From: a virus
Taxonomy: Duplodnaviria > Heunggongvirae > Uroviricota > Caudoviricetes
Reading direction: 5' to 3' (one strand)
Virus record (IMG/VR): IMGVR_UViG_2579778884_000008
Length of the DNA stretch: 14,340 bases
Below, piece by piece: positions 3,001 to 6,000 of the stretch. Position numbers: made by a program. How positions within the stretch are numbered: the stretch's first letter is position 1; the number at the start of each line of letters is the position of its first letter.

Positions 3001-6000
3001 CGTGAGGATGGGTCATCGCCATTGCTCTCCAAATACAAAACCAATTTCAGCCAGTGCTTCGTCCATTTTTTCGATGAACTCCGGCACCATCTCGTCAAAA
3101 CTCGCCATGTACTTTTCATCCCGCTCAACCACGACATAATGCAGGCCTTCACGCTTCATTCGTGGGTCATAGTTGGCAAAGTACCAGGCATCTTTTCGTG
3201 TCACCCACATGCTGTACTGCACCTGGGCCATGTAAGCCGACTTTATGGCCTCGAAACCACCGAGCCGGAACTTCATGAAATCCCGGGAGGTAAACGGGCA
3301 TTTCAGCTCAAGGCCATTGCCGTCACTGCATAAACCATCGGGAGAGCAGGCGGTGCGCATACTTTCGTCGCGATAGATGATCGGGGATTCAGTAACATTC
3401 ACGCCGGAAGTGAATTCAAACAGGGTTCTGGCGTCGTTCTCGTACTGTTTTCCCCACGCCAGCGCCTTAGCATTAACTTCCGGAGCCACACCGGTGCAAA
3501 CCTCAGCCAGCAGGGTGTGGAAGTAGGACATTTTCATGTCAGGCCACTTCTTTCCTGAGCGGGGCTTTGCTATCACGTTGTGAACTTCTGAAGCGGTGAT
3601 GACGCCGAGCCGTAATTTGTGCCATGCATCATCCCCCTGTTCGACAGCTCTCACGTCGATCCCGGTACGCTGCAGGATAATGTCCGGTGTCATGCTGCCA
3701 CCTTCTGCTCAGTGGCTTTCTGTTTCAGGAATCCAAGAGCTTTCACTGCTTCGGCCTGTGTCAGTTCTGACGATGCGCGAATGTCGCGGCGAAATATCTG
3801 GGAACAGAGCGGCAATAAGTCGTCATCCCATGTTTTGTCCAGGGCAATCAGCAGAGTGTTAATCTCCTGCATGGTTTCATCGTTAACCGGAGTGATGTCG
3901 CGTTCCGGCTGACGTTCCGCAGTGTATGCAGTATTTTCGACAATGCGCTCGGCTTCATCCTTGTCATAGATACCAGCAAATCCGAAGGCCAGACGGGCAC
4001 ACTGAATCATGGCTTTATGCCGTAACATCCGTTTGGGATGCGACTGCCACGGCCCCGTGATTTCTCTGCCTTCGCGAGTTTTGAATGGTTCGCGGCGGCA
4101 TTCATCCATCCATTCGGTAACGCAGATCGGATGATTGCGGTCTTTGCGGTAAATCCGGCACGTACATGATTCATTGTCCTGCTCAAAGTCCATGCCATCA
4201 AACTGCTGGTTTTCATTGATGATGCGGGACCAGCCATCAACGCCCACCACCGGAACGATGCCGTTCTGCTTATCAGGGAAGGCGTAAATTTCTTTCGTCC
4301 ACGGATTAAGGCCGTACTGGTTGGCGACGATCAGCAATGCGATGAACTGCGCATCGCTGGCATCACCTTTAAATGCCGTCTGACGAAGAGTGGTGATCAG
4401 TTCCTGTGGGTCGACAGAATCCATGCCGACACGTTCAGCCAGCTTCCCAGCCAGCGTTGCGAGTGCTGTACTCATCCGTTTTATACCTCTGAATCAATAT
4501 CAACATGGTGGTGAGCAATGGTTTCAACCATGTACCGGATGTGTTCTGCCATGCGCTCCTGAAACTCAACATCGTCATCAAACGCACGGGTAATGGCTTT
4601 TTTGCTGGCCCCGCAGCGTTGCAAATGATCGATGCAGAGTGATTCAAACAGGTGCTGTGGAAGACCTTTTTCCATGTCGTCTGCCAGTTCTGCCTCTTTC
4701 TCTTCACGGGCGATCTGCTGGTAGTGACGCGCCCAGCTTTGAGCCTCAAGACGATCCTGAATGTAATAAGCGTTCATGGCTGAACTCCTGAAAATGGCTG
4801 TGAAAATATCGCCTGCGAAATGCCGGGCTGATTAGGTAAACAGGAAAGGGGATTAGTGATTCAGGCCGTTGCCGCGTCCGTCGAGAAAAACTTCCACGAG
4901 CAAATCACGGGTATAAGTGCGCTCGATGCCGCGATGCAGATAAAGCCGTCCGCGTAAATTAGCTGATGCAGTCCAGGTACCATCTTTGTGTTTGACCAGC
5001 ATTCCTGGCATGACCGCACCGCGATTAACGGTCTGCGTTCCGTAATGTTGATGAACCATAAAAACTCCTGCCCGTAAGCTGGGCTGCTGAACATATAGAG
5101 ACTTCTGCGCGTATTCAGGCGGTGGATGGCCGCCGGTTGTCATAACTAAGCCGCCTCGTTGAAGCGACTAAGGTATGAAATGTTGAGTTAATTTCAGCTG
5201 GTCACACCGACGTTCACGCGTCCGTTTCACCCCTCGCACTCCCCGAAGCCTGCTGAAATTCAAACTGCGGATCTAAGCGGTCATCGCAACGGTGAATCAG
5301 GTAGTTGCCGTATCGTTGTGTTGTTGCGATGAACTTATTTAAAACTATAGTTGTTTTATCGTCAACAACAAAAGTTGTTTTATTGGTTGTTTTAGATATA
5401 ACTGGTTGTATTTAGGATGGATTTATTTTGTGACTTGAATCGCATAGCGATAACTGAAGCGAGGTTATGGTGGTTTTTTTAACGGTGTGTGTGATGAGGG
5501 GAGGGCAAAAGAAAACCCGGCACGGTGACCGGGATTCTTACGCCGTTAGGTAAAGATATTATTGCGGTGGCTTAATATTACTACCTAGAGCAAAGATAGG
5601 AATTAGTTCTTTACTGAATGAGCACAATGCCCAGTTGATAATTTTTAATTGGTACTACCCATGCTTCCTATATGTCTGCGGCATGCTCCCAATAACCTTA
5701 CCGAAGATGAACACCCGGTTCATCTCGTCTTTCTCGATCGGGTCCCACGGTGAGTAGCTTTTGTTATCAGAGATGACCAGCAGCTTATCCTTCATCATTT
5801 GCAGGCGCTTTACATGGGCTGTGTCGTCGTACAGAAACGCATAGATACCATCACCGTCGAAAGATTTAACTGTGATATCAACGAACAGCAGATCACCTGG
5901 TTCGATCGTTCCTGACATGCTGTCACCACGCACGTTAATGATGCGGATATTTTCCGCCTTCCTACCATCGAACATGTGACGAGCATCGTCAAACGAGTAC

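What the first reader, a model, noticed from the sequence alone, without database searches (positions are those of the whole stretch)
5144..5342. No N antiterminator gene: PL leads directly into the recombination operon through a structured leader
In lambda, N lies immediately downstream of PL. Here the candidate PL (-10 at 5337-5342, minus strand) is followed by ~185 nt with no ORF in any frame longer than ~40 codons and none with an arginine-rich N-terminus, and then directly by the Kil-position ORF and gam-bet-exo. The first 48 nt of the predicted transcript form a perfect 8-bp inverted repeat (5283-5290 / 5323-5330) enclosing 32 nt. Either the element is antitermination-defective, or it uses an RNA-based (HK022 put-like) or host-factor mechanism.
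Basis: partly seen in the sequence, partly recalled or inferred. Interest (0 to 1): 0.55.

Follow-up and report, generated by a model that had tools for sequence, protein, structure and literature searches.

The report
Unannotated RNA cassette replacing phage N
This lambda-like prophage has no N gene, and right after its early leftward promoter sits a conserved ~100-base structured RNA cassette that in sister phages occupies the same slot as the two known antitermination devices (N/nut and put RNA), so it is probably a third, undescribed way for such phages to read through terminators.

Summary
PL (-35 5365-5360, -10 5342-5337, start ~5330, minus strand) is followed by an untranslated leader, and there is no N or Nun gene. 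The leader is longer than reported, because kil really starts at ATG 5059.

The conserved unit is a 102-nt cassette at 5184-5285 (minus strand). It is present once per phage, in 16 isolated phages and in 2152 of 5426 complete E. coli genomes, and it is never annotated.

A diverged subfamily (A', 82% identical, same length) differs by three compensatory base-pair changes in two hairpins. A' follows at least eight different PL promoters, including those of phi80 and HK639.

In those phages it sits at the same junction of a shared 52-nt leader where phi80 has boxA/nutL+N and HK639 has putL. In contig L112 it replaces putL, and two strong terminators lie downstream.

A put covariance model, N/Nun searches and boxA searches are all negative, so the cassette is not a put or nut member.

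Best reading: a new kind of cis-acting RNA antitermination cassette. Its function is inferred from position only (confidence ~0.5).

The parts
5337..5365 (-). PL promoter: -35 TTGACG (5365-5360), 17-nt spacer, -10 TTAAAT (5342-5337). Predicted start is A5330 (+/-2). Overlaps the OL operator repeats (AACAAC/GTTGTT motifs, 5343-5383).
   Evidence: Sequence. 95% complementary to PR/OR at 6400-6418. Promoters of two other immunity types are in the same register relative to the conserved leader.
5283..5330 (-).
   Evidence: z = -3.0 in isolation. The stem is invariant apart from A/G at +1 (A-U or G-U) in 19 variants. In the third immunity type the 5' arm is AUUGCAUC (7 of 8 pairs) with the same 32-nt loop length. 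The hairpin is absent from subfamily A'. The loop varies at about the synonymous rate.
5184..5285 (-). Core cassette ('module A'), a 102-nt conserved structured RNA. Helices: P0 5279-5277/5237-5235; P1 5270-5261/5252-5243 (loop AAUUUCAG); P3 5231-5229/5202-5200; P2 5225-5220/5211-5206. The G-rich segment GGGGAGUGCGAGGGGUG (5244-5228) is invariant between the two subfamilies. Candidate cis-acting antiterminator.
   Evidence: Covariance model R2 scores 125.9 bits here, one copy per phage. Compensatory changes between subfamilies A and A' occur at 5266/5247, 5265/5248 and 5221/5210. Permutation P = 0.004-0.007. Both subfamilies have the same 102-nt length. The cassette occupies the slot of putL or nutL+N in sister phages.
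5190..5260 (-). Alternative long stem (SL-II): 5260-5249 pairs with 5201-5190 (11 of 12). It overlaps the P1 loop and the 3' arm of P1, so it is either a competing conformer or a loop-to-3'-tail pseudoknot.
   Evidence: I17; 93% of cells paired; two one-sided compatible changes; one variant repairs the A.A mismatch; no compensatory change. Single-sequence MFE folds choose P1 for two variants and the long stem for the other two.
5141..5177 (-). SL-III of 'module B': a hairpin pairing CAUA (5177-5174) with UAUG (5144-5141) that buries a GAG(G) Shine-Dalgarno-like triplet and the AUG at 5143.
   Evidence: z = -4.8. 7 of 15 pairs show compensatory changes across 13 sequence types. The hairpin is present downstream of N-, put- and A-type cassettes.
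5060..5143 (-). Rest of module B: a short upstream reading frame (MTTGGHPPP...) starting with the 23 nt ATGACAACCGGCGGCCATCCACC, which is also found in HK639 and, over its first 22 nt, in phi80 and HK225. In this phage the frame runs into kil.
   Evidence: One relative has a +1 T before the kil ATG that separates the two frames. Only 6.6% of sites vary, although 23 of them were fixed by the search pattern.
4853..5059 (-). kil (KilR/phi80 type, 68 aa), the first real gene of the PL operon. It has an AGGAG Shine-Dalgarno 5 nt upstream of its ATG.
   Evidence: phrog_294, E = 1e-37. Homology in Citrobacter, Kluyvera, Enterobacter and others starts at 5059. RefSeq annotation agrees.
3013..4777 (-). 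gam (4481-4777), bet (3690-4475) and exo (3013-3693): the recombination genes transcribed from PL.
   Evidence: Gam Pfam E = 4e-63. Annotation of the identical phage PhiR34_1.
2339..2357 (-). Intrinsic terminator (tL) inside the PL operon, between the recombination-side genes and the DksA/TraR-like gene, xis and int.
   Evidence: 8-bp stem followed by TTTTTTATTG. The same site has covarying stems in put-type phages L032, L035, L028 and L091.
5516..5533 (-). Intrinsic terminator ending the cI (immunity) transcript, upstream of OL/PL.
   Evidence: Conserved in all seven aligned phages although the cargo upstream differs.
5655..6410 (-). cI-type repressor (HTH + S24 peptidase).
6692..6704 (+). 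Perfect rrn-type boxA (CGCTCTTTAACAA), 13 nt after the cro (YdaS-like) stop, at the nutR position but with no boxB hairpin.
   Evidence: the only 0-mismatch match in the window. By my own estimate (not a tool result) about 0.001 are expected by chance. No structure downstream. Present in relatives of this immunity type; no match was found in the 4C10-type genome.

Best explanation
The window is the early region of a DLP12/Bievrevirus-type lambdoid prophage that has neither N/nut nor put in its left operon. PL transcripts start at about 5330. After a short 5' hairpin they contain a 102-nt RNA cassette (5184-5285) that folds into two covarying hairpin domains (P1 and P2/P3) closed by a short helix.

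I propose that this cassette is a cis-acting, processive antiterminator that works like HK022 put RNA without being related to it. Made as nascent RNA, it would stay bound to the RNA polymerase that transcribed it, alone or with host factors. That would let the polymerase read through the ~270-nt untranslated leader and the intrinsic terminator at 2357-2339 into the DksA-like gene, xis and int.

Shown: the cassette exists, it is conserved in length and in pairing, it is single-copy, and it alternates with put and with nutL+N at the same position. Inferred: that it acts as RNA, that it acts on RNA polymerase, and that it suppresses termination.
For: 1. THREE-WAY SWAP AT ONE JUNCTION. phi80, HK639 and the A' contigs share the first ~52 nt of the PL transcript (ATCGAAACGAAACATCGA...GCCAGCGGCG) and then diverge. 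phi80 continues with boxA and the gene annotated N. HK639 continues with the annotated 'putL-like antiterminator RNA'. L244/L245 (phi80's own PL) and L242/L251 (HK639's own PL) continue with the cassette.

2. PRECISE REPLACEMENT. L112 matches HK639 at 97% over the 64 nt before putL and 94% over the 54 nt after it. The 79 nt in between, which coincide within 7 nt with the put covariance-model match in HK639, are replaced by the 99-nt cassette. Two strong intrinsic terminators (GC-rich stem plus T6) then precede module B and kil.

3. MUTUAL EXCLUSION. Of 120 viral contigs carrying module B, 43 have the cassette, 25 have put and at least 22 have boxA. None has the cassette together with put, and none of the put loci has boxA upstream of module B.
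- The put model finds nothing in A/A' loci.
- The cassette model finds nothing in put or N loci, lambda, HK022, HK639 or phi80.
- A' loci have no N/Nun hit and no boxA in the leader.

4. STRUCTURE.
- Subfamilies A and A' are 82% identical and have the same length.
- Three of their differences are compensatory pairs in helices already predicted from the window sequence alone.
- Conditional permutation gives P = 0.004-0.007.
- The P2 loop changes at 6 of 8 positions while the stem changes only by the compensatory pair.

5. CONSTRAINT. 13.3% of module A sites (5181-5330: SL-I plus the cassette) vary, against 24% of third codon positions of kil and gam in the same 32 sequences (Fisher P = 0.02). 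For stems plus linker the figure is 8% (P = 0.008).

6. VIABILITY AND PREVALENCE. 16 isolated phages carry the cassette and lack N, as do 2152 of 5426 complete E. coli genomes.

7. SHARED TERMINATOR. The terminator at 2357-2339 is shared, with covarying stems, with put-type phages in the same operon position.
Against: - There is no functional evidence of any kind. Positional equivalence does not prove equivalent function.
- All covariation comes from a single split (A versus A'), so it amounts to three events, not many. Within subfamily A there is no compensatory change at all.
- Two alternative folds, and in the full leader a third long-range one, fit the data about equally well.
- Some A' contigs (for example L245) show no canonical intrinsic terminator within 7 kb downstream. 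In this window the first strong one is ~2.8 kb away, so the need for antitermination is not uniform.
- There is no second copy in the PR operon. That leaves rightward antitermination unexplained, although HK639 also has no second put match in the CM scan and PhiR34_1 shows no strong intrinsic terminator between cro and Q.
- No isolated phage carries A', and A' is absent from complete E. coli genomes. The most telling contigs are therefore unverified prophage or metagenome sequences.
- Conservation of subfamily A (95-100%) is close to that of the flanking genes.
Confidence: 0.5

Rival explanations
1. The cassette is a recognition site (nut-like RNA or DNA site) for a trans-acting antiterminator. 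The factor would be either an undescribed phage protein encoded elsewhere or a host Nus-factor complex. The cassette would not be an RNA that acts on the polymerase by itself.
For: It shares the positional evidence of the best explanation. A perfect boxA in the PR operon of this immunity type shows that Nus factors may be used by this phage. The G-rich invariant segment could be a protein-binding site.
Against: No gene is shared between the cassette and the first terminator across the subfamilies. In the window the next gene is kil. In L112 the first ORF after the cassette is 180 aa; it was not searched against any family here, and the window has no ORF at all between the cassette and kil. The PL leaders have no boxA. 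No N, Nun or phi80-N homologue occurs anywhere in two complete genomes.
Confidence: 0.15
2. The leader is an ordinary regulatory 5' UTR for kil and the red genes. It might be a Rho-dependent attenuator with a C-rich loading region (5322-5291), a processing site, or a translational control element. The phage would simply not need early antitermination; xis and int would be expressed from their own promoter or by terminator leakage.
For: The first ~40 nt are C-rich and G-poor, and the G-rich half can pair with them in a long-range fold. The whole-leader folding energy is unremarkable (z = -0.51). PhiR34_1 has no strong intrinsic terminator between cro and Q, and L245 has none for 7 kb after the cassette. 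Module B, just downstream, is clearly a translational-control type hairpin. From my own knowledge, not checked here: kil genes of cryptic prophages are silenced by Rho (Cardinale et al. 2008).
Against: This does not explain why the cassette alternates with put and nutL+N at one junction and is never combined with them. It does not explain how L112-type phages would pass two strong terminators after losing put. The C-rich part is not conserved in the third immunity type or in A', so the long-range fold is not a family feature.
Confidence: 0.2
3. The cassette has no function of its own. It would be a hitch-hiking remnant, for example what is left after deletion of an N or put module, that looks conserved only because all copies are recent relatives.
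For: Subfamily A copies are 95-100% identical, like their flanking genes. The SL-I loop varies at about the synonymous rate. Several variants carry indels, including +1 G and a 5-nt duplication just 3' of the cassette.
Against: Two subfamilies 18% apart keep the same length and keep pairing by compensatory changes. The cassette has been joined to at least 11 different promoter/operator types. It varies less than synonymous sites. It has no similarity to N genes, nut or put.
Confidence: 0.1
4. The interval encodes a small arginine-rich, N-like peptide (31-codon TTG ORF, 5263-5168, containing KRTRERR as in the lambda N arginine-rich motif) that binds the hairpin embedded in its own coding sequence.
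For. The ORF resembles lambda N's TRRRERR. In 4 of 7 aligned phages the stop is CAG and the frame runs on into kil; such extended frames are annotated as 128-139-aa 'Kil' in PhiR47_2 and Perceval.
Against: The start codon is TTG and I saw no obvious Shine-Dalgarno sequence by eye. Close relatives carry frameshifts (+1 G in L039; a 5-nt duplication in L133, L077 and L106; +1 T in L008), a stop/sense polymorphism and non-conservative changes (R->W, G->E). Pfam and PHROG give no hit, and the Kil family covers only the last 68-77 residues of the long versions. In A' the P2 hairpin that lies inside the arginine-rich stretch differs at 9 of its 16 positions.
Confidence: 0.03

Closest known systems
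HK022 / HK639 put RNAs (putL, putR): cis-acting processive antiterminator RNAs of lambdoid phages
   Same: The position is the same: in the PL leader, upstream of the first terminators, in a phage with no N. It occupies the same junction as HK639 putL. The size class is similar (about 75 nt against about 100 nt). It is built from two adjacent hairpin domains, has no associated protein gene, and is single-copy as in HK639.
   Different: There is no sequence or structural-profile similarity. The put covariance model gives <10 bits here, against 91-95 bits for true putL and 45 bits for putR. The conserved put motifs (CGAACGGCGCG, AAACCAUGCGUCGG, CGGCAAU) are absent. Instead there is a G-rich conserved core (GGGGAGUGCGAGGGGUG) and a possible alternative long stem or pseudoknot. 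Function is untested, whereas put has genetics, biochemistry and a cryo-EM structure (PMC9378689).
Lambda-type N / nut antitermination (N protein + boxA/boxB, Nus factors), including phi80 N
   Same: It takes the same place in the early left operon. phages with phi80's own PL promoter and 5' leader carry the cassette where phi80 has boxA and the gene annotated N. A perfect boxA is present in this window's PR operon at the nutR position.
   Different: There is no N-like gene. The PL leader has no boxA, and no boxB hairpin follows the PR boxA.
rrn-operon boxA antitermination complex (NusB/NusE/NusA/NusG/SuhB)
   Same: The window's boxA (CGCTCTTTAACAA) differs from the rrn consensus UGCUCUUUAACAA, as I recall it, only at the first base. 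It stands alone without a phage protein partner.
   Different: It is found only on the PR side and only in this immunity type. It does not account for the PL cassette.
Other processive antitermination RNAs and leaders in Rfam 15
   Same: They share the concept of a leader RNA that affects elongation.
   Different: No Rfam family matches the window leader or the A' version, even at E <= 5-10. Rfam also finds nothing at the HK022 put sites, so it holds no put family. These elements also belong to other bacterial phyla and operon types (my knowledge).

Membership tests
put antiterminator RNA (HK022/HK639) | Match to the put consensus of sequence and secondary structure | tested here: not met
   Model R1 was built from 25 put sequences and has 8 covarying pairs. 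HK022 putL scores 94.8 bits, HK639 putL 91.1 and putR 45.5. The window, PhiR34_1 and 23 A/A' loci give best scores <13 bits, E >= 0.3, none of them in the leader.
put antiterminator RNA (HK022/HK639) | Located in the early-operon leader downstream of PL, in a phage lacking N | tested here: met
   The cassette lies at +46 to +147 of the predicted PL transcript. It sits at the same junction as HK639 putL in A' contigs.
put antiterminator RNA (HK022/HK639) | Two stem-loops formed by the nascent RNA | tested here: inconclusive
   Two hairpin domains (P1, P2/P3) are supported by 3 compensatory pairs. A competing long stem is equally conserved, and the diversity is low.
put antiterminator RNA (HK022/HK639) | Acts in cis on RNA polymerase without phage protein; blocked by beta' zinc-binding-domain mutations; suppresses intrinsic and Rho-dependent terminators | not testable with these tools
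   This needs reporter assays, rpoC mutants and in vitro transcription.
put antiterminator RNA (HK022/HK639) | A second copy in the PR operon (true of HK022; HK639 shows none in the scan here) | tested here: not met
   nhmmer and model R2 find one copy per phage genome. The put model finds only one put site in HK639.
N / nut antitermination | N-type protein gene (arginine-rich motif) just downstream of PL | tested here: not met
   No ORF longer than 36 codons lies between PL and 5143. The 31-codon arginine-rich ORF is frameshifted in relatives. Pfam, PHROG and tblastn are negative.
N / nut antitermination | boxA plus boxB hairpin in both early leaders | tested here: not met
   The PL leader has no boxA within 3 mismatches. 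The PR side has a perfect boxA at 6692-6704, but the following 45 nt have no stable hairpin, unlike the N-type loci L124, L026 and L038.
rrn-type boxA / Nus-factor antitermination | boxA consensus in the transcribed leader | tested here: inconclusive
   Met for PR and not met for PL. Function is untestable here.
New PL-leader cassette family (A + A'), defined here | Match to model R2 (102 positions, 22 pairs), single copy, between PL and the first early-left gene or terminator | tested here: met
   The window at 5184-5285 scores 125.9 bits, E = 1e-27. The window sequence was part of the training alignment, so the match is by construction. Independent support comes from the nhmmer hit to L112 (69 bits), obtained with a profile built from subfamily A only.

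The most novel reading that the evidence does not exclude
Lambdoid phages have a third, so far undescribed early-antitermination module besides N/nut and put. It would be a ~100-nt cis-acting RNA, unrelated to put, that makes RNA polymerase terminator-resistant. It is exchangeable with the other two as a cassette at a fixed point of the PL leader, and it sits unannotated in about 40% of complete E. coli genomes.
Probability: 0.45. Interest if true: 0.8.

Novelty: new variant of a known kind. Interest (0 to 1): 0.68.

Why it matters
To my knowledge put is the only RNA shown to make E. coli RNA polymerase terminator-resistant on its own in cis. A second, unrelated RNA doing the same job would show that there is more than one RNA solution for reprogramming the elongation complex. 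It would also give a new handle for structural work on pausing and termination.

The element is very common. It occurs in 2152 of 5426 complete E. coli genomes and in every isolated Bievrevirus/DLP12-like phage examined here, and no annotation mentions it. Phage papers routinely note 'no N homologue, perhaps put-like' (for example PMC12315714 for phage LLS) without a candidate sequence.

The cassette-swap pattern gives three devices behind the same promoter and leader. This sets up a direct experiment: exchange the three cassettes in one reporter and compare read-through.

Even if the function proves different, the cassette and the neighbouring covarying hairpin plus upstream reading frame (module B) are conserved regulatory RNAs. 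They lie upstream of a toxic gene (kil) and the Red recombination genes.

Tried and rejected
- RFAM. A search of the window at 4700-7400 and of the A' region found only noise. Rfam has no put family, so its silence says nothing about put.
- BLAST. The leader compared with HK022, and the whole phage genomes searched for a second (putR-like) copy, gave nothing. The 'second place' reported in relatives was only the 3' end of cI, split off by inserted cargo genes.
- PUT MEMBERSHIP. Rejected by the covariance model. A short resemblance (GACG...CGUC, GAACGG.CGCG) is not kept in A'.
- N-LIKE PEPTIDE. The 31-codon arginine-rich ORF and the 96/128/139-aa 'long Kil' frames were rejected because of frameshifts in relatives and family coverage limited to the last 68-77 residues.
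- LONG-RANGE FOLD. RNAalifold on subfamily A alone proposed pairing of the C-rich 5' part with the G-rich 3' part. It has no compensatory support, and the 5' partner is replaced in the third immunity type and in A'.
- COVARIATION WITHIN SUBFAMILY A. None was found, for lack of variation.
- KIL HOMOLOGUES IN OTHER GENERA (genome contigs). These were meant to supply diverged leaders, but homology starts only at the kil ATG. That fixed the kil start and gave no leader.
- MY OWN TERMINATOR COUNTER. A crude counter run across loci missed known terminators, so it is not used.
- WASTED CALLS. One structure string was off by one column (corrected). The literature search for GevT/GevA was uninformative. 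King et al. 2011 (PMC3187212) could not be read, so statements about HK639 rest on its GenBank annotation and my memory.
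Full report
CONTEXT

The window holds the early region of a lambdoid prophage. Its genes, all, are:
- Minus strand: int (1-1143), xis, several small lambda-like genes, exo (3013-3693), bet (3690-4475), gam (4481-4777), a KilR/phi80-type kil, and a cI-type repressor (5655-6410).
- Plus strand: a YdaS-like cro (6449-6679), a YdaT-like 'cII' (6749-7288), O and P.

The 601 nt around the finding are 100% identical to the plaque-forming phage PhiR34_1 and 99.7% identical to phage Turner. 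They are 85-98% identical to 14 other isolated coliphages, among them Lambda_4C10, 4A7, Perceval and IdasGreatGrand. These are intact relatives of the K-12 DLP12 remnant, with ren-emrE-ybcK...rusA-quuD on the right arm.

CHECKING THE OBSERVATION

Promoter and hairpin:
- It mirrors PR/OR.
- In relatives with two other, unrelated operator/promoter sets the promoters are in the same register. Sequence homology resumes at the predicted first transcribed bases. This is good indirect evidence that transcription starts at about 5330.
- The 8-bp inverted repeat at 5283-5290/5323-5330 is exact, and extends to 10 bp in this window.
- An 8-bp repeat appears in 14% of shuffled versions of the interval. 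The 10-bp form appears in 1.1%, and the second repeat (11 of 12, 5190-5201/5249-5260) in 2.2%.

Coding potential and N:
- No ORF exceeds 36 codons.
It is interrupted by a +1 G, a 5-nt duplication and a TAG/CAG polymorphism in close relatives, so it is not coding.
- The ORF that starts at 5143 is not kil. Kil homology in Citrobacter, Kluyvera, Enterobacter and others begins at ATG 5059. The PHROG Kil family covers only those 68 residues, and RefSeq annotates 68 aa. The untranslated leader therefore runs from ~5330 to 5060.
- No N, Nun or phi80-N relative exists in the window or in two complete relatives.

ANATOMY OF THE LEADER

Comparison with 120 viral contigs that share a 23-nt motif of the leader splits the leader into modules.

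Module B (5180-5060):
- It is common to many lambdoid phages, and most of it is also in phi80, HK225 and HK639.
- It consists of a hairpin (5141-5177) with 7 of 15 pairs showing compensatory changes.
- The hairpin buries a Shine-Dalgarno-like GAG(G) and the AUG of a short frame beginning MTTGGHPP.
- In most phages an intrinsic terminator lies immediately upstream of it.

Module A (5330-5181):
- It is found in 43 of the 120 contigs. All copies are 95-100% identical, which is too little variation to test structure. No compensatory change occurs among 19 variants under either of two models.
- Its sites vary less often than third codon positions of kil and gam in the same sequences: 13% against 24%, P = 0.02. 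For stems and linker the figure is 8%, P = 0.008.

A DIVERGED SUBFAMILY

A profile of module A searched against all fetched loci found a weaker match in contig L112 (69 bits). A pattern scan then found 15 contigs of this subfamily, A'.

- A' corresponds to window 5184-5285 only.
- A and A' are 82% identical and have the same length.
- Their differences include three compensatory pairs: A-U to C-G and G-C to A-U in hairpin P1 (5266/5247, 5265/5248), and A-U to G-C in hairpin P2 (5221/5210).
- The P2 loop changes at 6 of 8 positions.
- These helices were already in the minimum-energy fold of the window sequence alone.
- Given the number of changes that fall in paired positions, so few broken pairs are expected with P = 0.004-0.007.
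- A competing long stem (5260-5249/5201-5190) is also conserved. It could be an alternative conformer or a loop-to-tail pseudoknot. Single-sequence folds choose one or the other depending on the variant.
- All of this covariation stems from one evolutionary split, so the structure is supported but not proven.

THE CASSETTE SWAP

This is the key result.

- A' follows at least eight different PL promoter/operator types. With the three types seen for A, that makes eleven.
- All A' contigs share the first ~52 transcribed nucleotides with phi80 and HK639. After that point phi80 continues with boxA and the gene annotated N. HK639 continues with the RNA annotated 'putL-like antiterminator RNA'.
- Contigs with phi80's own promoter (L244, L245) or HK639's own promoter (L242, L251) continue instead with A'.
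- L112 matches HK639 at 97% and 94% on either side of putL. The 79 nt that coincide with the put model's match are replaced by the 99-nt cassette. Two strong intrinsic terminators then precede module B and kil.
- Two other contigs (L032, L035) have put directly abutting module B, with no gene in between. That is the same layout as the window has with module A.

The three devices exclude one another:
- Among the 120 contigs, 43 have the cassette, 25 have put and at least 22 have boxA. None has the cassette together with put, and none of the put loci has boxA upstream of module B.
- A put covariance model finds nothing in the A/A' loci.
- A cassette model finds nothing in 80-odd put or N loci, lambda, HK022, HK639 or phi80.
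- A' loci have no N/Nun hit and no boxA.

MOST LIKELY MECHANISM

The simplest reading is that the cassette does the job that put and N/nut do at that position. As nascent RNA it would modify the polymerase that made it, so that it reads through terminators.

- In this window the relevant terminator is the one at 2357-2339, between the recombination genes and the DksA-like gene, xis and int. The same terminator, with covarying stems, is present in put-type phages.
- No protein gene accompanies the cassette, and no gene family is shared between the cassette and the first terminator across the subfamilies. A put-like, protein-independent action is therefore more economical than a nut-like site.
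- These steps are inferred. Nothing here shows RNA-polymerase binding or read-through.
- The rightward operon has no second copy. It has a perfect rrn-type boxA after cro in this immunity type and no strong intrinsic terminator before Q in PhiR34_1, so it may not need a dedicated device.

COMPARISON WITH WHAT IS KNOWN

- The cassette works, if at all, like put (PMC9378689; King et al. 2011, not readable here). It fails the membership test for put: the sequence/structure profile gives <10 bits against 91-95 bits for true putL.
- It also fails the test for N/nut: no N gene and no boxA/boxB in the PL leader.
- Rfam 15 has no matching family, and it has no put family either.
- I found no paper describing the element. 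A 2025 survey of 314 lambdoid phages still treats 'no N' as 'perhaps put' (PMC12315714).

VERDICT

The finding leads to a probable new class of early-antitermination cassette that is present in 40% of complete E. coli genomes. Confidence in the antitermination function is about 0.5. The main rivals are a nut-like site for an unknown factor, an ordinary regulatory 5' UTR, and a functionless remnant.

Noticed in passing
window 6692-6704 (+): A perfect rrn-type boxA (CGCTCTTTAACAA) lies 13 nt after the cro (YdaS-like) stop, at the nutR position, with no boxB hairpin behind it. It is present in relatives of this immunity type but was not found in the 4C10-type genome. N-type contigs have the same boxA followed by a boxB hairpin.
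   Followed up: partly
window 5060-5180 (-): 'Module B' is a hairpin (5141-5177) with 7 of 15 covarying pairs. It sequesters a Shine-Dalgarno-like GAG(G) and the AUG of a short frame, MTTGGHPPP (a polyproline, possibly stalling motif), just upstream of kil. It is shared by N-, put- and cassette-type lambdoid phages and usually lies right after an intrinsic terminator. It looks like a conserved translational or attenuation control for kil.
   Followed up: partly
window 4853-5143 (-); loci L001, L002, L006, L008, L009, L011, L253: kil is annotated inconsistently in public records: 68 aa (RefSeq, HK225), 77 aa in a wrong frame (PhiR34_1), 96 aa (IdasGreatGrand), 128 aa (PhiR47_2) and 139 aa (Perceval). 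Homology and family coverage support 68 aa starting at 5059.
   Followed up: yes
window 5168-5263 (-): A 31-codon TTG ORF with an arginine-rich stretch (KRTRERR) recalls the lambda N RNA-binding motif. Relatives carry frameshifts and a stop/sense polymorphism, so it is a by-product of the G-rich RNA sequence.
   Followed up: yes
window 2339-2357 (-): A strong intrinsic terminator inside the PL operon, before the DksA/TraR-like gene. The site is conserved with different, still complementary stems in put-type phages, followed by a conserved ~50-nt leader.
   Followed up: partly
window 5420-5515 (-), palindrome at 5439-5451: The stretch between the cI-operon terminator (5516-5533) and OL is conserved in all seven aligned phages, although the cargo genes upstream differ (GevT/GevA toxin-antitoxin, others, or none). 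It contains the palindrome ATCGCATAGCGAT. Function unknown.
   Followed up: no
window 9003-13517 (+): The prophage in this window ends after gene P. Where intact relatives have ren-emrE-ybcK...quuD, a 1421-aa ORF (9252-13517) follows. Its sequence looks like an intimin/invasin-type adhesin with three near-identical ~119-aa repeats (my reading; no family search was run). The element here therefore seems truncated or rearranged on its right arm.
   Followed up: no
L244, L245, L242, L251 (IMG/VR contigs): Subfamily A' was found only in IMG/VR contigs. No isolated phage in the phage collection and no complete E. coli genome has it, although some copies sit behind the PL promoters of the coliphages phi80 and HK639. 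Their hosts were not determined.
   Followed up: partly
L012 2263-2330 (+); L013 34313-34372 (-); L112 and L239-L252 at the equivalent position: The first ~52 nt of the PL transcript (ATCGAAACGAAACATCGACAGCTGAGCGAAGTTAGCCAGCGGCG) are shared by phi80, HK639 and all A' contigs, upstream of whichever antitermination cassette follows. The window's own leader starts similarly (ATCGCAACAACACAACGAT). The role of this common 5' segment is unknown.
   Followed up: no
L004 39578-39659 (+): A weak match of the cassette model (27 bits, rough E = 0.001) lies inside the side-tail-fibre gene of PhiR34_1. It is probably chance.
   Followed up: no
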